From Naegleria gruberi (lineage: Eukaryota), in the NCBI GenBank assembly GCA_000004985.1, contig GG738895.1: DNA of 64,000 nt, one strand, 5' to 3'. The notes below the pieces were generated by a model, which ran no database searches, had not been told where the DNA came from, and worked only from the letters and a program-made list of their open reading frames with translations. Positions 1-15,423 of the stretch are shown here, piece after piece (the first letter of the stretch is position 1; each line of letters starts with the position of its first letter). Made by a program: the position numbers and the translations under genes.

Positions 1-3000
1 AAAGCTCTTCGGAAAGAGTATTGTTTTCTTCCTTTACGTGTTTCAATTTCTCTTTGGTTTCTTCCAACTCTTTCAACAAGGAACCTTCCTTAAGATCAGA
101 GCTAGAAAGAAGACTGTTCTTCTCTTGAGTAAGGGTTTCAACTTGTTTGTTTAGTGAAATAATTTCCACTTCATTCTCCTTAATTTTCTCTGAAAGCTTG
201 GACTTCTCAGAGATATGTTTTTCTAGTTCTCTAGTCTTTTCTTCAATAAGGTTTGTCAGGTCTGTCAACTTCTTGTCTGCATCACTTGAGAGAGATTCGA
301 GTTCTGAAATTCTACCTGCTGAGGTTTGCAATTGTGAAGTAGACTCAGCGAGTTGATCTTCTAGCTGCTTCTTTGCTTCCTCCAATTGTTGCAGTTTGTC
401 AGCAAGTTGATTCTTTTCGGAAAGTAATTCACTAATTTGACTAGAAAGAGTATCAGAGCCTTGACCCAATCTTTCCAATTCATCCTTAGTTCTTTCTAAA
501 CTTTGGCTTGTTTCTTCCAACTTTTGTTTGTATTCTAATACTTGTTTATCCAATTGTTCATGAGCACTAATTTCTTTAGAAAGTTCTTGTTCCTTTTGTT
601 GAATAGTTGCAGAAAGTTCTTTTCTCTCCTTTGTCAATAAATCTTCAATGTCGTTCTTTTCTTTTTGAATCTTTTCAATTCTTTGCAGCAATCCTGAAAC
701 CTCTGATGATGTATTTTCTTTATCACTTGTAATAAGTTTTAATTGCTCTTCTAAATTGGAAATATTGGACAAGGCTCTTTCGAGATCAACCTTGAAAGTA
801 TCTCTTTCTTGGACAGTACCTTCGAGTTCTTGTTCCTTGTCCTGTAGCGATTTGGAAACTTGTGCAGATTTTTCTTGTTCACTCTTCAGAGATTCTTCAA
901 GGGTAGTAACTCTGGATTTGATTTCTACCAATTCCGTTGCTAGGTTTTTCTTTTCATCGTTAAGTTCAGAGACCTTTTGTTGTGATTCGGTGAGATTTTG
1001 TTTTAGTTCCTCGATAGTGGAATTGAGAGAAGTTATTGTTTTCTCGAGGTCATCTGATTTTTGCTTGAAATCCTCAATTTGAGATTCAAGCTCTTCATTT
1101 TGTTTTCTAACAGATTCGACTTCCTGACTGACTTTGGAAAGTTTCTCATCTAATGACCCATTTTGCACCTTCAATGATTCATATTCTTGCAACAAGTTAT
1201 TCAGCTTTTCCTTATGTTCTGACAATTCTTTGAAGAATGTTTCTTTCTCCTTTTCGGTTTGAGAAAGAACTTCCTTAGTTCTATTCATTTCATTTTGAAG
1301 GTTAATATACAGCGAATCCTTTGTTTCAGAATCATTAAGATTTTGATCTTGCAAATCTTTAAGTTGCTTCTTAATCGATTCAATCTCATTAAGAGATTTT
1401 TCTTTTTCATCACGAGTTTGTTCCAATGTCTTATTAATATTTACAAGTTCTTGTTGTGTATCTTGTAATTGCTTTTCTAAAGATAGCTTCTCGGTGGAAT
1501 GCTGTTCAATAGTTGTATTGTTCTGATTAACAAGATCTTCATATTTTTGGGAAAGGGTGTTATACTCCTTTTCTTGATTGTCTTTGTTTTCATTTAGACT
1601 GGAAATAGTAGCTTCTAACGATGAAATTTGTTGAGTTAAAGAAGAAACCTTATCTTGCAAATCAACTTTTGCTTTAGTTTCGGCTTCAATCTCGCTCTCT
1701 CTGGTCTTTAACTCCTTTCTAAGATTGGATTCCTTTTCAGAAACGTCAGAAAGGTTTGATTCAAGACTTGAAATCTTTTCAGACATTTGCTTAACCTCAT
1801 TGTTGAGTCTTTCCTTCTCTCTATTTGCCTCATCAAGTTGTTGCTCTTTTTGCTTAATATTGTTCATCAGTTCTTGTGATAAACTTTCTTGACTTGCCAA
1901 GGAAGTAGTAATAAGTTGATTCTTTTCATTCTCGAGTTGAGTAACTTTTTCATTCAGTAACTTGATTTCACTTTCAAGTTCAACCTTATCCTTTTTGACT
2001 TGATCTAATTCTGAATCAATTCTACTGTTAAACTCAACTAACTCCAAATTGGTTTGCTTGATTGCATTTAACTTTAGAAGAAGAAGATCTGTCATTTTAT
2101 GCAACTCTTCTTGAATTTGATCCGGATGAATCTTTTCAAACTCGTTACTCTTGCTATGGTTAATAAATTCGTCACTTAATTTGGTGGCTTCTTTAATCTT
2201 CTTCTTGAAGTCATTGTCTTCAGTCACTTGAGTCATAGCTTCTTCCAGTTTCTTCTTCAGCTTGTTGAATTCTTGAATACATGACAACAAAATTTCATGT
2301 TCCTTGTTGGTCTTTTGGAGATTATGATTAGTCTTCTCAAGTTGAGTAGTAATTTCTGATTTTTCCTTCAAAATCTTTTGAATAGATTCGTGATTCTCGT
2401 TATCTTCTTTTTCTTTCAACTTCTTCAAGCTTTCAAGTTCAGATCTGATAATCTCAATATCTTTTTCTTTTGAAGATGCTTCACTTTCATAATGCTTCTT
2501 CAAGAATTATAGTGTTTCCATATTTTTTAAAACTTACCTTAAGTCTTGTGAGCTCTGAATTTAACTCTTCATTTGTATGCTTGAGTTGTTTAACATTTTC
2601 TTCGAGATTATGAGATTTATCCTCTGATGCCTTCAACTTTAGAGAAACTGATGAAACCTCCTCTTGTATTTCCTCAATACGACCTTCATACTCACGACTA
2701 GATTTTTCCTTCTCTGCATTATTTTCCTGAATAATGTCATCCTTTCTGGAAGATTCCTGTTTCAAGTTTTCAATACTTTCCTCCAAGGATTTAATTTGTT
2801 TTTGAAGTGTTTCCTTTTGTTCTTGCAAGGTATCAGATTCTGCTTCCATCTTTTAACATTATTAGAAACATTGTTAAAATGTTGAAACCTACCTCTTCAA
2901 GCTTATCTTTTGTTTGCTTGATTTGTTGTTCATACTTTTGTTGGGCTTGTTTCGATTTGAGTTGAATCTCAAACAATTTGCTGTCTGCCTCTTGTTGGGC

Positions 3001-3403
3001 TTCTTGGGCACGATCATATTCTTCCCTAAGATTTTTAGCTTCCTCCTGAATAATTCTCAACTTTTCCTCGAGTTCATCTCTTTCCTTTGCAATTTGAGAT
3101 ACTATGGATGTCTTGTCATCCCCTTCAAGCTCTTTAATACGTTTCTGAAGGGATTCTATTTGTTCACGTAACTCTCCAACAATATTTTCCTCAGCAAGTG
3201 ATCCTCTGCTGAGTATGAAGGAACCTCCATTTCTAGGTGTTCCATAATCCTGTTAATAATAAACAAATATTATAATTTCCAAAATCTATATGTAAACATA
3301 CATTGTGAGTGGCTTCATCTTCCTCTTCTCCATTATCTCCTCCTGTATATGTACTAACTCCATCAAAATCATCATCACTATCAACCAATATATTGATCAT
3401 CAT
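1..3403 (-). CDS. Large coiled-coil protein (myosin-tail/SMC-like heptad-rich). Multi-exon; the 3' end runs off the window. Exons (minus): 3403..3302, 3249..2893, 2849..2538, 2507..<1
   Basis: Minus-strand frame is open from 2507 to position 1, E/K/L/Q-rich with heptad character. Three short GT..AG introns (gtatgtttac...aacag 52 nt; gtaggtttc...taaaag; gtaagtttt...cttgaag) give phase-consistent splicing. Start taken as ATGATGATC at 3403. Confidence 0.55.
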
Positions 3404-3420
3404 TTGTTCAATTTAAAAAC

Positions 3421-3968
3421 TTACAGTCCGGGAACATTTTTCAAGCATCTTGAATTGATGACAATTTTAAGTTTAGCTTTTCCGACAGGTTTTGGGATAA
3501 CCAAGCTGAGTTCCTTTGTTTGTGTAACTTCCTCACTTTCATTAACAAATTGACCAAGATCAAGTTCCTCCTTTACCAAAACAGTATCTTTTGATTGGTG
3601 TGTTTTGTTATTTGTAACTCTTTCCTCAAGAGTAAGTACTAAATCCTTCTTTTGAAAAACACCCTTCTTTTTGACAAGTGTACCATTAAACTTGAAAGTA
3701 GTATTCCAAGTCACTCTTTCTCTGTCAATTTTGGTGTATGGTGTTTCACCTTTACGTTTCTTACCTCTCTTCCAATGAACCTATAAACAAATATAAGAAA
3801 TTCCATTTGATTATTTAAAAAACATACTGCATAAAACACATCTTCATCAGGTGTTGGTTGACGAGATAAACTTGAATTTTTAAAATCAAAGAGGTGATCA
3901 ACAGACAAATTAAATTGGAATTTAACATTTTCCTTTCCACCTCCAAGGAAAGATTTCTTTTTCAACAT
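3421..3968 (-). CDS. NT-C2 (N-terminal C2, EEIG1/EHBP1-type) domain protein, 2 exons (3968..3828, 3779..3421)
   Basis: MLKKKSFLGGGKENVKFQFNLSVDHLF...DEDVFYA | VHWKRGKKRKGETPYTKIDRERVTWNTTFKFNGTL... matches the NT-C2 pattern (KFxF, W.RG, conserved W). 48-nt intron gtatgtttttt..tttatag is phase 0. The TAA stop overlaps a perfect GTAAGT donor. Confidence 0.5.
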
Positions 3969-4400: not shown

Positions 4401-6233
4401 TTAATGTTTGTCAACAACCATAGTCTTGGCATTACACCATTCAAGAATACCTTCAGAACCACATTCTCTACCATAACCACTTTCCTTAACACCACCGAAT
4501 GGCATTTCTGGGCTTGATCTAACAACACCATTAACAAAGGCCATACCACATTCAAGTTTTTCAGCAATCTTGGAAGCTTTCTTGACATCCTTACTATAAA
4601 CACTACCACCAAGACCATAGATGCTTTCATTAGCCAATTGAACAGCATGATCAGCATTTTCAGCAGCAACAACAACGAAAACTGGTCCAAAGAGTTCATT
4701 ATGGAATGCAAAATTATCAGTTGTAACATTTGACAAAACAGTTGGTTGATAGAAGAAACCATTGCTCAATTCACCTGACAAACTAGCCTTAGAACCACCA
4801 GCCAAAACCTTAGCACCTTGACTAACACAGAGTTTAACTTGATCATCCAATTTGTCCATCAAATCTTTTCTGGCCATTGGACCAACATCATTACCTCTAA
4901 CAAGTGGATCACCCAATTTTAAGCTCTTAACCTTTTCAGCGAGCATTTTTTCAAATTGTGGAAGAACTTCCTTTTCAACAATTAATCTCTTAGCAGCAAT
5001 ACAAGTTTGTCCACAATTGTTAATTCTTGAAACAACAGCATTCTTGACAGCAAGTTCCAAATCGGCATCCTTAAGAACAATGAAAGCATCAGCACCTCCC
5101 AATTCCAAAACGTGCTTCTTAAGATTGGAAGCAGCTTGGCTGGCAATAATTTTACCAACTTGAGTACTACCAGTGAATGCAACACCACGAATCTTATTGT
5201 GACTAATAGTAGTACTAACTTGTTGATTTTCAAGGAAGACATTTTGATAAATCTTGTTCAATTCAGATGGAGCACCACTTTAAGAATGATGTTAACATTT
5301 TTTGTAAAATTATAATGAACTACATACGCTTTAGCAAGAGCTTCTTCAAATAAATCTTGAATTGATTTAGCACAAGTGGGAACTTGGTGATTGTGTCTAA
5401 TCATAACAGTGTTACCAGCCATCATTGCAGGAACACAGAATCTAATAACTTGCCAGTATGGGAAATTGCTAATTAAATTGAAAATAAACACATTCACATT
5501 ACAGAGTACAACTACTTACAATGGGGCACATTGAAGAACTGGTCCAAGTGGTTGGTAGACAACTCTACTGAACATCTTTTCATTATCAAAAACAACCTTA
5601 TCACGCAAAACACTTTCAGAAGTCTTGACATAATATCTGATGAGAGATGCACACTTTTCAGCTTCAGCAACACCTTGAGCAACTGGTTTACCCATATCCA
5701 AAGCCATCATTTTAGCTAATTCTTCCTTGTGAGCTTCGAATGCATCAGCAAGTGGATTCATGATTTGAGAACGCCATTGAATTAATTCAGCAATTTCCTT
5801 TGGATTTTCTATTTTGTTAATTCCACAATAATTTCGTTATTATTAATTATTATTATTTGTTGTTTGTCGTTGATGATAATTTAAATTATTCACATCACAA
5901 ATTCCACATCAATTTAAAATCCAAAATTCCATCATCGTCATCACAAAATAATTCCGAAACCTCTAGTATATAAAAACGTCCTCCATCTAAAACAACCTAC
6001 CTGAGTATAATTGTGGATTCCAAGCTTGGAATGACTTCCAACTTTCTTGAATAGCTTGTTCCAATTGTTGATCAGAAAGACATTCAAATTGTTTGGTCAA
6101 CTTTCCGTTAGTTGGATTGATAGAATTATAGTGAGTGTTCAACTTGGAGCTAGTGGAAAAACACTTGTCATTGCTTGAAGCAACTTTTCTCAATTGATTT
6201 AATGCTGAAGAAGCCTTCTTTGATTGATTCATT
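4401..6233 (-). CDS. NAD(P)-dependent aldehyde dehydrogenase, succinate-semialdehyde dehydrogenase-like. 4 exons (6233..6001, 5808..5520, 5468..5329, 5278..4401)
   Basis: ALDH motifs: ELGGADAFIV (catalytic Glu), NCGQTCIAAKR (catalytic Cys), FTGSTQVGK, NFPYWQ, GNTVMIRH. N-terminus MNQSKKASSALNQLRKVASS is presequence-like. Splice phases were checked by hand. Confidence 0.85.
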
Positions 6234-8020: not shown

Positions 8021-8725
8021 ATGTCAGGAGACGATCATCACCAACACCATCATCATCACAGTGGAGGATGTTGTTCCGAAGCCCATAGTGGAGATTTTCA
8101 TGAACACGATCATCATTGCGAACATGATCACGGAGCACATGATAAGAATGAATTAGAAGGATTTCAACAAACACTCTATCCATATATTGATAAAATTCAT
8201 GTCCGTTGTTTGAATGAACATAAACTAAATGCTTGCCAATCAATTATTAGACCATACGATCAAAGAAAATCAAAAGATGGATATTTGGAAAGTGCTGTTG
8301 ATGAGGAATTATTACTTGTTGTTCCTTTTACAGTTTCAACAAATTTAAAATCTTTTCAAATTATTGGAGGAGACAATGAGTCATGTCCAAGCAAAGTCAA
8401 AATATTCAAGAATAATGAATTATTAGATATTGAAACTGCTACACAAAAGAAGGCTGATCAAGAGCTTGATTTAACTTTTGATATTGAAGGAACTTATGAC
8501 TTTTTGTTAAAGCAAAGCAAGTTCAATAACTGCCAATCTATTACTCTCTTCTTCCCTTCAAATTTTGGAGCTGAAAATACAAGGATTTCATATATTGGAT
8601 TTAAGGGAGATTACTCTGATTTTAAGAGAAGAGCTGTAGAAGCAATTTATGAATCTGCTCCTCAAATGAAGGATCATAAAGTAGATTGTGAATGGACCAA
8701 TTCCAAGACAATTGGTGGACAATAA
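8021..8725 (+). CDS. PITH domain-containing protein (PITHD1 / TXNL1 C-terminal domain family) with a His/Cys-rich N-terminus
   Basis: VRCLNEHKLNACQSII, DEELLLVVPFT, FFPSNFGAENTRISYIGFKGDY and a C-terminal HKVDCEW align along the length of the PITH/DUF1000 fold (human PITHD1-like). N-terminus is MSGDDHHQHHHHHSGGCCSEAHSGDFHEHDHHCEHDHGAHD. Confidence 0.8.
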   Translation: MSGDDHHQHHHHHSGGCCSEAHSGDFHEHDHHCEHDHGAHDKNELEGFQQTLYPYIDKIHVRCLNEHKLNACQSIIRPYDQRKSKDGYLESAVDEELLLVVPFTVSTNLKSFQIIGGDNESCPSKVKIFKNNELLDIETATQKKADQELDLTFDIEGTYDFLLKQSKFNNCQSITLFFPSNFGAENTRISYIGFKGDYSDFKRRAVEAIYESAPQMKDHKVDCEWTNSKTIGGQ

Positions 8726-11637: not shown

Positions 11638-12489
11638 ATGTCATCGAAGCCTTCATCATCATCGTCATCACCATCAACAACAAGTGAAGGAGGTATCCGA
11701 CTCTTCTCTCAAAATGAGAGTAAAGCTTGGGCTGAAAAGTTCTTTTTAATTTACGGACCAATTTGGATGTCATACTTTTTCTATTTAATTTACTTTGAAA
11801 TTTATGATAATGCATCAAGAATGGAATGGACAATGTATGGTGTAATTATGGCTACTCCATGTTTCTTATATCCATTATTATTCCCTGGTAAGGCTGATCG
11901 TAATCTTCCGATTACTGAAAGATATTGGTTCAAGGCTAATATTTGGGTTTTCATCTTTAATTTTGTTGGAAATTACTTTTGGACTCATTACTTTTATAAT
12001 CTTTTAGGTGCAACATATACTATGGATACTCATCGTATTAATGATGTTCCATATTTGATGTTTTTATGTACTCAAGCTTATTTCACTTTCTATTTCTCAT
12101 TGAGTAATGTTCTTTTGAGAATTATTTATACTGCATGGAGAAATCCATCAACTTCTAGAAGCATTTTCATTTGTCTTTTCATTTTGGCTTTCTCTTACTT
12201 TACTGCTTTTATGGAAACTTATACCATTCAATATTTCAAGTATTACACTTTCAAGAATAGAGATATGATGTACAAAGTTGGTTCAATTGTCTATGGTATT
12301 TACTTTATTGTTGGTTTCCCAATGTATTATAGAATGGATGAAGAGGAAACAAAGAAAAAGTTCTCAACTTTCAAATGTTGTGTTGAAAGTTTGGGCGCAT
12401 GCATGTTAGTTACAATTTTGCTTGATTTTTGGAGATTGTTTGTTGGTGGTATTGTTGAAAATGTTCCTCAATGCGTTCCATGGATGTAA
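11638..12489 (+). CDS. cpi1: Cycloeucalenol cycloisomerase (CPI1-like sterol biosynthesis membrane enzyme)
   Basis: GKADRNLPITERYWFKANIWVFIFNFVGNYFWTHYFYNLLGA...FPMYYRMDE...MLVTILLDFWRLF is collinear with plant CPI1. Multi-pass membrane protein. Fits cycloartenol-route sterol synthesis in amoebozoa. Confidence 0.85.
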   Translation: MSSKPSSSSSSPSTTSEGGIRLFSQNESKAWAEKFFLIYGPIWMSYFFYLIYFEIYDNASRMEWTMYGVIMATPCFLYPLLFPGKADRNLPITERYWFKANIWVFIFNFVGNYFWTHYFYNLLGATYTMDTHRINDVPYLMFLCTQAYFTFYFSLSNVLLRIIYTAWRNPSTSRSIFICLFILAFSYFTAFMETYTIQYFKYYTFKNRDMMYKVGSIVYGIYFIVGFPMYYRMDEEETKKKFSTFKCCVESLGACMLVTILLDFWRLFVGGIVENVPQCVPWM

Positions 12490-13338: not shown

Positions 13339-15423
13339 ATGCCAGTCTTTTCTTTCTTCAAGAAGAAGGAATCTTCTTCATCAAACACTAAACCAAATTC
13401 TGACTTGGCTAAGAAACTTCAACAAAAAGGTTAGTTTTCTATTCGAAACCAACATTAGAATAATTTTATTGTTTTAATAGATGCTGGTTCTTGGACAGTC
13501 AATGAAGTTGGTATTTGGTTAGATTTAGTTGGTTTAGGAGAATATAAAGTAAGTTGTTGTAGTTTCTAATAACATTAAACTAAACTATTTAGCCAATATT
13601 TATTAACAATTCAATTAGTGGTCAAGAATTACTCGAATTAGGAGAAGAAGGTTTGTTGATATTATTATTATTTCCATTAGTTTCTAATAGATATGTTGTG
13701 ATGATCATTAATTGATGTTTTTATTCGAATCTTTCTAAATTGAACTAAATATCCGTAATATTATCCGTTACTGTCATCACCCATTGTTAATTCCCATCTC
13801 TTTGAATACAATCATTATACATTCATTTATAATACTTTTTACAAATATATATTTAATATTACAATAATAACACTATTTATAATAATACTAATACATACAA
13901 TAATAATACAATAACATGTACATACAATTATATAAAAATAGATATGAATCAACTTCAAGTGACAAAACTTGGTCATCGTAAAAAGTTTAAAAAACTTGTT
14001 GAAGCACTTAAAAAGAATTCAAATATTACAAATTTCCTTGAAACACTTTCAGAAAATGATTCCGATATGATTCCACCAACAAGTAGTAGTAGCAGTTCTA
14101 ATAATATTAATAATAATAATAATGGTACTGCTAGTAATAGTACAGGTGGAGGTGGAAATTTCACACAAACAGCTCAACCATCTAATTTCCAAAATAGTAA
14201 CTTGTCTGAATTGAGTGCAGGTAGTTCAGGAGGTGGTGTTTCAGCTGATTTAGTTTTTAAATGTTATCATGCTGAAGATGTTCATTTAATTGCATTGAAA
14301 AGAGATAGAGCTACTTTTAGTGAATTGAAATTAAAGATTATTGAAGAATATAATTGTTTAAAACCAATTATTAAATACCGTGATACAGAAGGTGATTTTA
14401 TTAATATTAGAAAGGAAGAAGATTTTAATATTTGTAAACAAAATGTTCCAGTTGACTCTGCTATTAGATTATATATTACAACTGAAAATGATGCAGATGA
14501 CACTTCAAGTCAAACAAGTGGAAGTGAAATGTCATCATCAAATACTGCACAACTTCATGCTCAACGTCATACAGATCAATTTCCATCAATTTATGCCTCA
14601 GATGAAGAACCAGAAATGGATGATGGAGCTGTTTTCTTTGATGACTTTGTTGATTCTGTAATTATTATTACAGATGATAAGATTGTTCAATATATGAACA
14701 AATCTGCTGAAAAGGCATTTGGTTATACAAAGAAGGAAGTTATTGGAAGAAATGTCAAGATTTTAATGAGTAATACTCATAGAATTCAACATGATAATTA
14801 TGTTGATAATTATTTAAGAACTGGTCAAGCTAAAATTATTGGATCTGGAAGGTAAGTTTTTATACTATGAATAATTTCTCTCTAATACACAACTTTACAT
14901 CTAATTAGAATGGTTGAAGCTCGTGCTAAGGATGGTTTAATTTTCCCAATTTGGTTGAGTGTTGCTGAATCTGCTTGGTTAGGAAGACATGCTTTCACTG
15001 CTACAATTCAAGATTTAAGAAAGGATAAGAGTAAGCATAGTAATTCTTCTGTTACTTCTCTTTTGGAAAACCTTGTTGATGCTGTCATTATTATTGATCT
15101 AAAATGTAATATTTGTTTCTTAAACAAGTCATCTGAAAAGATGTTTGGTTATAATAGAGATGAACTTATTGGAAAGAATATTAAACAACTCATGCCTGAG
15201 AAGTATTCCATTAATCACGATTCATATGTTTCTCACTATTTGGAAACTGGAGAAAAGAAAGTTATTGGAAGAGGTAGAAAAGTTACTGCTAAAGATAAGA
15301 GTGGATCAATGTTCCCAATTTGGTTGAGCGTCAGTGAAACTAAATTCTCAGGAGAACGATCATTTGTTGGTACTATTCAGGATCTAAGAAAGGAAAACTC
15401 TTTGGACAAGATGTTGCACTAAA
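13339..15423 (+). CDS. SAM + PB1 + two tandem FixL-type heme-PAS domain protein. 5 exons (13339..13429, 13481..13548, 13593..13650, 13942..14852, 14909..15423)
   Basis: Spliced SAM domain: WTVNEVGIWLDLVGLGEYKPIFINNSISGQELLELGEEDMNQLQVTKLGHRKKFKKLVEALKK. PB1 with Lys and OPCA motif: VFKCYHAEDVHLIALKRDRATFSELKLKIIEEYNCLKPIIKYRDTEGDFINIRKEEDF. PAS-A: DSVIIITDDKIVQYMNKSAEKAFGYTKKEVIGRNVKILMSNTHRIQHDNYVDNYLRTGQAKIIGSGRMVEARAKDGLIFPIWLSVAE...TIQDLRK. PAS-B: DAVIIIDLKCNICFLNKSSEKMFGYNRDELIGKNIKQLMPEKYSINHDSYVSHYLETGEKKVIGRGRKVTAKDKSGSMFPIWLSVSE...GTIQDLRKE. Both PAS domains align to the FixL heme domain ([54 protein letters not shown]). All splice phases were verified. Confidence 0.7.

What the first reader, a model, noticed from the sequence alone, without database searches (positions are those of the whole stretch)
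2893..3968. NT-C2 domain gene ends 18 bp from the start of a giant coiled-coil gene: possible mis-split single NT-C2+coiled-coil locus
NT-C2 domains (EEIG1/EHBP1/plant PMI1 type) are characteristically fused to long coiled-coil or CH-domain tails. Here the NT-C2 ORF (3968-3421) terminates at CTG-TAA-G. That sequence is simultaneously a perfect GTAAGT 5' splice site in phase 0. The coiled-coil gene starts only 18 bp downstream (ATGATGATC at 3403) in the same orientation. Splicing from 3421 to the phase-0 acceptor aacag|GATTATGGA at 3249 would fuse NT-C2 in frame to the coiled coil (..NVPGL-DYGTPRNGGSF..). That would skip the acidic exon 3403-3302, which cannot be joined in phase to the NT-C2 exon. 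Either this is one gene with alternative first exons or promoters, or two genes in an unusually tight tandem.
Basis: partly seen in the sequence, partly recalled or inferred. Interest (0 to 1): 0.5.

Follow-up and report, generated by a model that had tools for sequence, protein, structure and literature searches.

The report
Ordinary intron mistaken for gene boundary
The apparent stop codon that separates the NT-C2 gene from the coiled-coil gene lies inside a normal 47-base intron, so this is one ordinary Naegleria gruberi gene encoding an NT-C2 domain joined to a long coiled coil, as in its relatives.

Summary
These are TAA at 3423-3421, GTAAGT at 3424-3419, ATG at 3403 and the acceptor at 3250|3249. 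The donor phase was misread. GTAAGT starts at the G of CTG, so exon 2 ends at 3425 in phase 2, not phase 0.

A 47-nt GT-AG intron (3424-3378) joins exon 2 in frame to the 76-nt acidic exon (3377-3302), giving ..NVPGL|DDDFDGVSTYTGG... A six-exon model reads 1246 codons without a stop to the window edge.

- **Conservation:** The same phase-2 intron sits at the homologous position in Naegleria lovaniensis, Willaertia magna and two environmental relatives.
- **Splice-free proof:** In one relative (L004), a single uninterrupted ORF runs from the NT-C2 domain through the acidic motif into the coiled coil.
- **Orthologues:** They are single proteins of 1657 and 1730 aa with NT-C2, coiled coil and a C-terminal DIL domain.
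- **Organism:** The window is N. gruberi NEG-M, not a dictyostelid.

The "one gene" idea is right. The proposed exon-skipping splice, the claim that the acidic exon cannot be joined, and the tandem-gene alternative are not supported.

One curiosity remains: an open in-frame ATG 23 nt upstream of the acceptor is shared by three Naegleria sequences. Overall this is an ordinary finding of low interest.

The parts
3828..3968 (-). Exon 1 (141 nt; ATG at 3968; codons 1-47, start of the NT-C2 domain). Ends in phase 0 at ..TAT GCA|GTATGT.
   Evidence: The intron-1 position (YA|V/I-xWKRG) is shared with N. lovaniensis and L004.
3781..3827 (-). Intron 1, 47 nt, GTATGT...TATAG, phase 0.
3425..3780 (-). 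Exon 2 (356 nt; rest of the NT-C2 domain, ..WKRGKKRKGET..CLKNVPG + CT of the split Leu codon). Ends in phase 2.
   Evidence: Pfam NT-C2 covers residues 12-161, which is window 3935-3439 including intron 1.
3378..3424 (-). Intron 2, 47 nt, GTAAGT...GATAG, phase 2. It contains the apparent stop TAA (3423-3421) as bases 2-4 of the donor.
   Evidence: - **Frame:** removing it restores the reading frame.
- **Length:** it fits the window's candidate introns, median 46 nt and range 39-57 nt with one at 89 nt.
- **Conservation:** a phase-2 intron sits at the homologous position in W. magna, L001, N. lovaniensis and L005.
3302..3377 (-). Exon 3, 76 nt (1 + 25 codons): (L)DDDFDGVSTYTGGDNGEEEDEATHN, the acidic linker with the conserved DDF..VSTYTG motif.
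   Evidence: - **Conservation:**
- **Same size:** N. lovaniensis has a 76-nt exon at the same place.
- **Coding signature:** against L001, 9 of 11 substitutions are synonymous and the one indel is 3 nt, in frame. I counted these by eye from the alignment.
3250..3301 (-). Intron 3, 52 nt, GTATGT...AACAG, phase 0.
   Evidence: The position is shared with N. lovaniensis and L001.
2893..3249 (-). Exon 4 (357 nt): DYGTPRNGGSF... and the start of the coiled coil.
2850..2892 (-). Intron 4, 43 nt, GTAGGT...AAAAG, phase 0.
   Evidence: The unspliced reading stops after 23 codons (ORF 2833..3060).
2538..2849 (-). Exon 5 (312 nt), coiled coil.
2498..2537 (-). Intron 5, 40 nt, GTAAGT...TGAAG, phase 0.
1..2497 (-). 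Exon 6 (partial), 832 open codons of coiled coil running off the left edge of the window. The 3' end of the gene is not in the window; orthologues carry a DIL domain there.
   Evidence: DIL domains in orthologues.

Best explanation
One protein-coding gene lies on the minus strand of Naegleria gruberi, with at least six exons from ATG 3968 to beyond position 1.

The 'stop' of the NT-C2 ORF is not a stop. It is bases 2-4 of a consensus GTAAGT donor in a phase-2 intron (3424-3378, 47 nt). Any phase-2 intron that begins GTAA reads as xxG TAA when left unspliced, so ORF-level reading always sees a false gene end at such a site. The ATG at 3403 lies inside this intron.

Splicing joins CT|T into a Leu codon. 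The product runs NT-C2 domain, acidic linker (DDDFDGVSTYTGG..), then more than 1000 residues of coiled coil.

By orthology the full protein probably ends in a DIL (myosin-V cargo-binding type) domain. That suggests a dimeric rod that binds membrane at one end through NT-C2 and a Rab or adaptor at the other through DIL.

What is shown and what is inferred:
- **Shown:** the splice signals, frame restoration, domain identity, and conservation of the intron and of the fused architecture.
- **Inferred:** actual splicing in N. gruberi mRNA, the C-terminal DIL domain in this species, and the tethering function.
For: 1. **Open frame.** The six-exon model gives 1246 codons with no stop. The donor is GTAAGT and the acceptor is the first AG downstream.
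2. **Typical intron length.** 47 nt equals intron 1 and fits the window's 19 candidate introns, median 46 nt.
3. **The same false stop occurs elsewhere in the window.** Three other ORFs end in the TAA of a phase-2 GTAAGT donor, at 14852, 10893 and 5519.
4. **Conserved intron position and phase.** A phase-2 intron is at the homologous position, just after the C-terminal end of the NT-C2 domain. W. magna has AA|GTAAGT..TGTAG|C, 94 nt. N. lovaniensis has AA|GTAAGT..CTATAG|T, 53 nt, followed by a 76-nt exon and a phase-0 intron exactly as here. Environmental contig L001 has GT|GTAAGT..AATAG|T, 48 nt. L005 has GA|GTACGT..TGCAG|T.
5. **Splice-independent proof.** On contig L004 a single 240-codon open frame runs from the WKRG core of NT-C2 through DDFSEVSTYTG into ..LQKERDDLRNKLK..AQQ of the coiled coil.
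6. **Single long orthologues.** N. lovaniensis C9374_000283 is 1657 aa with NT-C2 and DIL. W. magna KAL9645710.1 is 1730 aa. BLASTP matches are colinear: query 11-192 at 54% identity (E=2e-50) spans both junctions, and 225-1158 matches the coiled coil at E=6e-30.
7. **Transcript evidence in relatives.** A transcriptome-derived protein of Heterolobosea sp. BB2 has NT-C2 and DIL on one mRNA. Transcriptome-derived proteins of Percolomonas and Pharyngomonas carry the NT-C2 region continuous with the downstream linker motif.
8. **Coding signature in exon 3.** Against L001, 9 of 11 substitutions are synonymous and the indel is a 3-nt in-frame one, while the intron interior is diverged.
Against: - No N. 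gruberi transcript data could be consulted, so splicing is inferred, not observed.
- No annotated N. gruberi protein covering this locus was retrieved to compare with.
- N. gruberi genes can be tightly packed. One same-strand pair in the window is 95 nt apart (42334/42429) and one convergent pair is 14 nt apart. Tight spacing alone therefore does not rule out two genes.
- The intron contains an open in-frame ATG that is shared by three Naegleria sequences, which leaves room for an additional isoform.
- The N. lovaniensis and W. magna models are themselves predictions.
Confidence: 0.9

Rival explanations
1. There is one gene, spliced as above, but it also yields an NT-C2-less isoform. That isoform would start at the intronic ATG (3403 or 3400), either from an internal transcription start or from intron-retaining mRNA. 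In retained-intron mRNA the NT-C2 ORF stops at the TAA, and translation would restart 17-20 nt later.
For: - Of 19 candidate introns in the window, only this one has an open in-frame ATG reading into the next exon.
- The homologous intron in L001 and in N. lovaniensis also has an open in-frame ATG at exactly -23 (ATGRT), although the rest of the intron has diverged.
- In plant RPG the coiled-coil part without NT-C2 is sufficient for localisation and function (PMC9931111), so an NT-C2-less form could be functional.
Against: - The conserved block fits a branch-point motif (ATGAT / TTGAT / CTCAT, with the A at -23), at a position that I judge usual for short introns.
- W. magna and L005 have no such ATG.
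- From general knowledge, reinitiation after a 166-codon ORF is inefficient in eukaryotes.
- Only three related sequences carry it, so shared ancestry may be enough to explain it.
- There is no transcript evidence.
Confidence: 0.07
2. These are two independent genes in very tight tandem: a 166-residue NT-C2-only protein ending at TAA 3421, and a coiled-coil protein starting at ATG 3403.
For: - Both ORFs are open as read.
- The N. gruberi genome is compact, with 95 nt between one same-strand pair in the window.
Against: - A 17-nt spacer has no room for a 3' end plus a promoter, and there is no AATAAA.
- The sequence upstream of the acceptor (MMINILVD) is not conserved in L001 or N. lovaniensis, whereas conservation starts exactly at the acceptor.
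- Orthologues are single proteins, and L004 has one continuous ORF across the boundary.
- The donor, acceptor, phase and the 76-nt exon are conserved.
Confidence: 0.02
3. One reading: NT-C2 is joined directly to 3249, skipping the acidic exon, to give NVPGL-DYGTPRN.
For: The junction is in frame on paper only if the intron is taken to start after CTG (alternative translation).
Against: - That intron would begin TAAGTT, not GT.
- With the real GT at 3424 the join is out of frame and stops at codon 197.
- The skipped exon encodes the motif best conserved after the NT-C2 domain.
Confidence: 0.01

Closest known systems
Naegleria lovaniensis C9374_000283 (1657 aa, UniRef 'C2 NT-type domain-containing protein') and Willaertia magna ABK040_003442 / KAL9645710.1 (1730 aa)
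   Same: - The N-terminal NT-C2 domain is 50-54% identical.
- The DDDF..VSTYTG acidic motif follows the domain.
- The coiled coil is colinear.
- The phase-2 GTAAGT intron is at the same codon, and N. lovaniensis has the same 76-nt exon.
   Different: - The N. gruberi acidic linker is much shorter: about 50 residues between NT-C2 and the coiled coil, against about 150 in the two orthologues.
- W. magna lacks intron 1.
- The C-terminal DIL domain seen in both orthologues lies outside this window and is only inferred here.
- Both are uncharacterised 'hypothetical proteins'.
Plant RPG (RHIZOBIUM-DIRECTED POLAR GROWTH) and related NT-C2 plus long-coiled-coil proteins
   Same: The architecture is an N-terminal NT-C2 domain followed by long coiled-coil regions (PMC9931111).
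   Different: - RPG is plant-specific and has no DIL domain reported.
- No orthology has been shown.
- RPG functions in infection-thread polarity.
EHBP1 / EHBP-1
   Same: It has an N-terminal NT-C2 domain that binds phosphoinositide membranes, with a C-terminal coiled-coil Rab-binding module. It acts as a membrane-to-cytoskeleton/Rab adaptor (PMC4894640, PMC7442826). This is the functional analogy I adopt.
   Different: - EHBP1 has a central CH (actin-binding) domain and a bMERB domain.
- No CH match was found in the 1246 residues in the window.
- The orthologues here end in DIL instead.
Class V myosin tail (coiled coil plus DIL/globular tail domain)
   Same: The orthologues share a long dimerising coiled coil followed by a DIL cargo-binding domain.
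   Different: There is no motor domain; an NT-C2 domain occupies the N-terminus. The DIL domain has not been observed for the N. gruberi gene within this window.

Membership tests
NT-C2 domain (Pfam PF10358; EEIG1/EHBP1/PMI1 type) | Sequence match to the family profile above the curated threshold | tested here: met
   E=1.8e-14, 54.0 bits against a cut-off of 25.2, residues 12-161, profile positions 2-138 of 143. The match is lost when the whole 1246-aa coiled-coil protein is scanned.
NT-C2 domain (Pfam PF10358; EEIG1/EHBP1/PMI1 type) | C2-type beta-sandwich fold | tested here: met
   The AlphaFold2 model has 8 strands over residues 13-159 with pLDDT mostly above 90. The top Foldseek PDB hits are all C2 domains: cPLA2, dysferlin, CEP120 and anillin, with E down to 4e-6.
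NT-C2 domain (Pfam PF10358; EEIG1/EHBP1/PMI1 type) | Located at the extreme N-terminus of the protein | tested here: met
   The domain starts at residue 12 of the model. The ATG at 3968 has an in-frame stop 14 codons upstream.
NT-C2 domain (Pfam PF10358; EEIG1/EHBP1/PMI1 type) | Binding of membrane phosphoinositides | not testable with these tools
   This is known for EHBP-1/EHBP1 (PMC4894640, PMC7442826) and is inferred here.
U2-type GT-AG spliceosomal intron (for 3424-3378) | Consensus donor, terminal AG, and a length typical of the genome | tested here: met
   The intron is GTAAGT...TAG and 47 nt, and it ends at the first AG downstream of the donor. The 19 candidate introns in the window are 39-57 nt (one of 89), median 46.
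U2-type GT-AG spliceosomal intron (for 3424-3378) | Removal restores a long open reading frame | tested here: met
   One search gives 1246 codons with no stop. Unspliced or exon-skipped versions stop at codon 167 or 197.
U2-type GT-AG spliceosomal intron (for 3424-3378) | Position and phase conserved in orthologous genes, with exons conserved and the intron interior diverged | tested here: met
   Searches show phase 2 in five heterolobosean sequences. The intron is absent in L004, where the frame is continuous.
U2-type GT-AG spliceosomal intron (for 3424-3378) | Spliced junction observed in mRNA of this organism | not testable with these tools
   No N. gruberi transcript data are available. 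Transcriptome-derived proteins of other heteroloboseans show the fused architecture.
Heterolobosean NT-C2 / coiled-coil / DIL orthogroup | Colinear similarity over NT-C2, acidic motif and coiled coil | tested here: met
   two colinear HSPs to both P0037 and P0002.
Heterolobosean NT-C2 / coiled-coil / DIL orthogroup | C-terminal DIL domain (PF01843) | not testable with these tools
   The gene runs off the window at position 1. DIL is present in N. lovaniensis, W. magna, P0017, BB2 and Andalucia orthologues, and falls just below the cut-off in L004.
EHBP1 family | Central calponin-homology (CH) domain and C-terminal bMERB domain | tested here: not met
   No CH or bMERB match was found in the 1246 residues in the window, nor in the full-length scans or C-terminal scans of orthologues.
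Two independent tandem genes | Own 3'-end signal for the upstream gene and own promoter/TSS for the downstream gene in the spacer | tested here: inconclusive
   The spacer is 17 nt with no AATAAA. N. gruberi signals are poorly defined, so sequence alone cannot settle this. The comparative evidence argues against it.

The most novel reading that the evidence does not exclude
The intron 3424-3378 may double as a regulated switch. When it is retained, or when transcription starts inside the gene, the immediate TAA ends a free 166-residue NT-C2 protein. The Naegleria-conserved in-frame ATG at -23/-26 then starts a separate coiled-coil-DIL protein. One locus would thus make either a membrane-anchored tether or its two uncoupled halves.
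Probability: 0.05. Interest if true: 0.5.

Novelty: new member of a known kind. Interest (0 to 1): 0.15.

Why it matters
Mostly it matters as a correction.

- **Reading pitfall:** In this genome, ORF-level reading creates false gene ends at every phase-2 GTAAGT intron, because xxG|TAAGT reads as a stop. At least four cases occur in this window. 'Tight tandem' or 'mis-split' calls of this kind should be checked for donor phase first.
- **Possible annotation gap:** No annotated N. gruberi protein for this locus, or for the aldehyde dehydrogenase next to it, was retrieved from the protein collections, although neighbouring N. gruberi genes were. The reference annotation may lack them.
- **Family:** The NT-C2 / coiled-coil / DIL architecture is shared by heteroloboseans and the jakobid Andalucia (Discoba, from my knowledge of their classification). 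It looks like a motor-less membrane-to-cargo tether. I found no paper that mentions both NT-C2 and the DIL domain.

Tried and rejected
- **Word-indexed protein search.** The first 269 aa returned nothing. This was a false negative: the exhaustive search and a later full-length query found identical ORF fragments and orthologues.
- **Pfam on the full protein.** The scan of all 1246 aa missed NT-C2. Scanning the N-terminus alone found it.
- **PDB sequence search.** Nothing useful came back.
- **Reading the public N. gruberi annotation of this locus.** All attempts failed. Exact look-ups of neighbouring ORFs 8021-8722 and 11638-12486 were not on record. A homologue search with that model found N. 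fowleri and W. magna proteins but no annotated N. gruberi protein. I therefore could not fetch the DNA left of the window to check for the DIL domain.
- **Zhang & Aravind 2010 (the NT-C2 definition paper).** It is not held in the library.
- **Metagenome scan.** The 8-sequence alignment was too diverse. A 3-sequence alignment gave only one more locus, L005.
- **Segment identity between N. gruberi and L001.** The segments are short, so this discriminates only moderately: exon 3 is 82% identical and intron 2 is 57%. The synonymous-substitution pattern is more informative.
- **Dictyostelid origin.** Rejected on the exact protein matches.
Full report
**What is in the sequence.**

Read on the minus strand, the region contains the following:
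- an ATG at 3968;
- a 47-nt GTATGT...TATAG intron (3827-3781);
- the rest of an NT-C2-like ORF ending ..AAT GTT CCC GGA CTG TAA G;
- ATGATGATC 17 nt further on, at 3403;
- an acidic stretch ending AAT|GTATGT at 3302|3301;
- an acceptor aacag|GATTATGGA at 3250|3249.

The NT-C2 assignment is also correct. The spliced exon 1+2 product matches Pfam PF10358 at E=1.8e-14, 54 bits against a cut-off of 25.2, over residues 12-161. An AlphaFold2 model built on an 8-sequence alignment gives an eight-stranded beta domain with pLDDT above 90. Its best PDB matches are all C2 domains.

The hexamer GTAAGT occupies 3424-3419. Its G is the third base of the CTG codon, and its TAA is the 'stop'. A splice at this donor therefore leaves the exon ending at 3425 with two bases (CT) of a split codon. 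That is phase 2, not phase 0.

The first AG downstream of the donor is at 3379-3378 (gttgatAG|T). This defines a 47-nt intron, the same length as intron 1. The next exon starts at 3377 with a single T that completes CTT (Leu).

So the acidic exon (3377-3302, 76 nt = 1 + 25 codons) joins in phase, contrary to the finding. With introns at 3827-3781, 3424-3378, 3301-3250, 2892-2850 and 2537-2498, the model translates into 1246 residues with no stop up to the left edge of the window.

With the true GT, skipping the acidic exon shifts the frame and stops at codon 197.

**Is the intron more than a paper construct?**

*Local context.* A scan of both strands for consensus donors that bridge long ORFs gave 19 candidate introns. 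They are 39-57 nt long (one of 89), median 46 nt, and almost all have GTAAGT or GTATGT donors. Three other ORFs in the window also 'end' in the TAA of a phase-2 GTAAGT donor, at 14852, 10893 and 5519. The last is in the aldehyde dehydrogenase gene next door, where splicing restores a typical PFNFPYWQ aldehyde-dehydrogenase motif. The false stop is thus a systematic property of phase-2 GTAA introns, not a peculiarity of this locus.

*Organism.* Five long ORFs of the window are identical to annotated Naegleria gruberi NEG-M proteins, for example DNA polymerase epsilon XP_002672840 and ARP6 XP_002672841, on a scaffold of 333,733 nt. The window is heterolobosean, not dictyostelid.

*Orthologues.* An exhaustive HMMER search with residues 1-234 found ORF-level fragments of the same species. 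It also found long relatives:
- Willaertia magna KAL9645710.1: 1730 aa, 51% identity, with the match running from residue 12 to 193, across both exon junctions;
- Andalucia godoyi: 1609 aa;
- Percolomonas: 1595-1620 aa, including transcriptome-derived members;
- Heterolobosea sp. BB2: 683 aa, from a transcriptome;
- Pharyngomonas: 394 aa, from a transcriptome;
- an environmental protein of 1396 aa.

A second search found N. lovaniensis C9374_000283, 1657 aa, carrying Pfam NT-C2 (16-152) and DIL (1459-1573).

BLASTP of the window model against the N. lovaniensis and W. magna proteins gives two colinear matches. One covers NT-C2 plus the acidic exon: residues 11-192, 54% identity, E=2e-50. The other covers the coiled coil: residues 225-1158, E=6e-30.

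The residues straddling the disputed junction are conserved:
- N. gruberi: CLKNVPG-L-DDDFDGVSTYTGG
- N. lovaniensis: CLKDQNP-N-DDDFTAVSTYTGP
- W. magna: CLKDQNP-N-DEDFTAVSTLSGS
- P0017: CLKDVDQADEDFENVSTFSGT
- P0006: CLKDGKKGDDFSEVSTYTGV

*Gene structure in relatives.*
- **W. magna:** the annotated gene has a 94-nt phase-2 intron at exactly this codon (CCA AA|GTAAGT...TGTAG|C GAT GAA GAT TTT).
- **N. lovaniensis:** CCA AA|GTAAGT..(53 nt)..CTATAG|T GAT GAC GAT TTT. This is followed by a 76-nt exon and a phase-0 intron, the same micro-structure as in N. gruberi.
- **L001 (500-nt environmental Naegleria-like contig):** GGA GT|GTAAGT..(48 nt)..AATAG|T GAC GAT GAT TTT. In exon 3, 9 of the 11 substitutions relative to N. 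gruberi are synonymous and the only indel is 3 nt. The intron interior and the supposed N-terminus MMINILVD are not conserved.
- **L005 (a more distant contig):** again a phase-2 intron at the corresponding position, with a GTACGT donor.
- **L004 (a 56.9-kb environmental contig):** there is no intron here at all. One uninterrupted 240-codon frame runs from IFWKRGAKRSG (the NT-C2 core), through DDFSEVSTYTG and GHTPRG, into LQKERDDLRNKLKQAQIDNENLKEERDRAVNAQQ of the coiled coil.

The L004 result shows, independently of any splice model, that the NT-C2 domain, acidic motif and coiled coil form one reading unit in this family.

**What the gene is.**

The window holds the first 1246 residues. These are the NT-C2 domain (12-161), a disordered acidic linker, and a region of 1032 residues with coiled-coil composition: 18% E, 13% K, 13% L, a single Pro. 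That region gives only sub-threshold matches to coiled-coil Pfam families. The gene runs off the window.

Orthologues end in a DIL domain, with these scores:
- N. lovaniensis: 50.9 bits
- W. magna: 47.1 bits
- P0017: 40.5 bits
- BB2: 99.4 bits
- Andalucia: 24.9 bits
- L004: 22.1 bits, just below the cut-off of 24

The N. gruberi protein probably has a DIL domain too, but I could not read the DNA to the left of the window.

By analogy with EHBP1, the most likely function is a dimeric rod-shaped tether or adaptor between a membrane and a vesicle or organelle. In EHBP1 the NT-C2 domain binds PI(4,5)P2 and other phosphoinositide membranes (PMC4894640, PMC7442826). In myosin V tails the DIL domain binds cargo. 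This functional reading is inference. It is not an EHBP1 family member, because no CH or bMERB domain was found. The NT-C2 plus long-coiled-coil layout is also that of plant RPG (PMC9931111).

**Residual oddity.**

Of the 19 candidate introns in the window, only 3424-3378 has an open in-frame ATG reading into the next exon, at -26 and -23. The homologous introns of L001 and N. lovaniensis also have an open in-frame ATG at exactly -23 (ATGRT), in otherwise diverged sequence. W. magna and L005 do not.

The block fits a branch-point motif with the A at -23 (ATGAT / TTGAT / CTCAT). I consider this the likelier reading. A conserved alternative start for an NT-C2-less isoform cannot be excluded without transcript data. 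I give it about 5-7%.

**Verdict.**

This is one ordinary gene with an ordinary intron. The proposed exon-skipping mechanism, the 'cannot be joined in phase' statement, the two-gene alternative and the dictyostelid attribution are wrong.

Novelty is limited. This is an N. gruberi member of an uncharacterised family that is already annotated as single hypothetical proteins in N. lovaniensis and W. magna. No annotated N. gruberi protein for this locus, or for the adjacent aldehyde dehydrogenase, turned up, which may indicate a gap in the reference annotation.

Noticed in passing
window 3398-3403 (minus strand); L001 30-77; L003 3723-3775: An open in-frame ATG lies exactly 23 nt upstream of the exon-3 start. 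It is shared by the homologous intron of N. gruberi, an environmental Naegleria-like contig and N. lovaniensis. None of the other 18 candidate introns in the window has an open in-frame ATG. It is either a branch-point motif or an alternative start.
   Followed up: partly
window 4401-6232 (minus strand): A four-exon aldehyde dehydrogenase gene (512 aa in my model) lies upstream of the NT-C2 gene, with introns at 6000-5809, 5519-5469 and 5327-5278. It is 74% identical to an N. fowleri protein. No annotated N. gruberi protein matched it, just as for the NT-C2 gene, although neighbouring N. gruberi genes are in the collection. This may be an unannotated stretch of the reference.
   Followed up: partly
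window 14852-14908 (+), 10893-10854 (-), 5519-5469 (-): Three further ORFs 'end' in the TAA of a phase-2 GTAAGT donor, the same false-stop effect as in the finding.
   Followed up: yes
L002 (W. magna), L003 (N. lovaniensis), L001, L004, L005: Intron gain and loss occur within this one gene family. Intron 1 is present in N. gruberi, N. lovaniensis and L004 but absent in W. magna. Introns 2 and 3 are absent in L004. L001 has an extra intron inside what is exon 4 in N. gruberi (..DKTSV|GTAAGT..AAAAG|VTQIAKERD).
   Followed up: partly
window 30348/30362, 52185/52224 and 42334/42429: Gene packing is very tight. Convergent ORFs end 14 nt and 39 nt apart, and a same-strand ORF pair is separated by 95 nt.
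   Followed up: no
vs 8, and vs 57: Pfam domain hits disappear when the full-length coiled-coil proteins are scanned and reappear when the termini are scanned alone. This happened for NT-C2 in the window protein and for NT-C2 and DIL in W. magna. It may explain why such proteins are annotated without domains.
   Followed up: yes
orthologues P0002, P0037, P0011, P0016, P0017; L004 10253-11389: The family architecture is NT-C2, then coiled coil, then a DIL (myosin-V cargo-binding type) domain. It is found in heteroloboseans and in the jakobid Andalucia godoyi. No paper in the searchable library mentions both NT-C2 and the DIL domain.
   Followed up: partly
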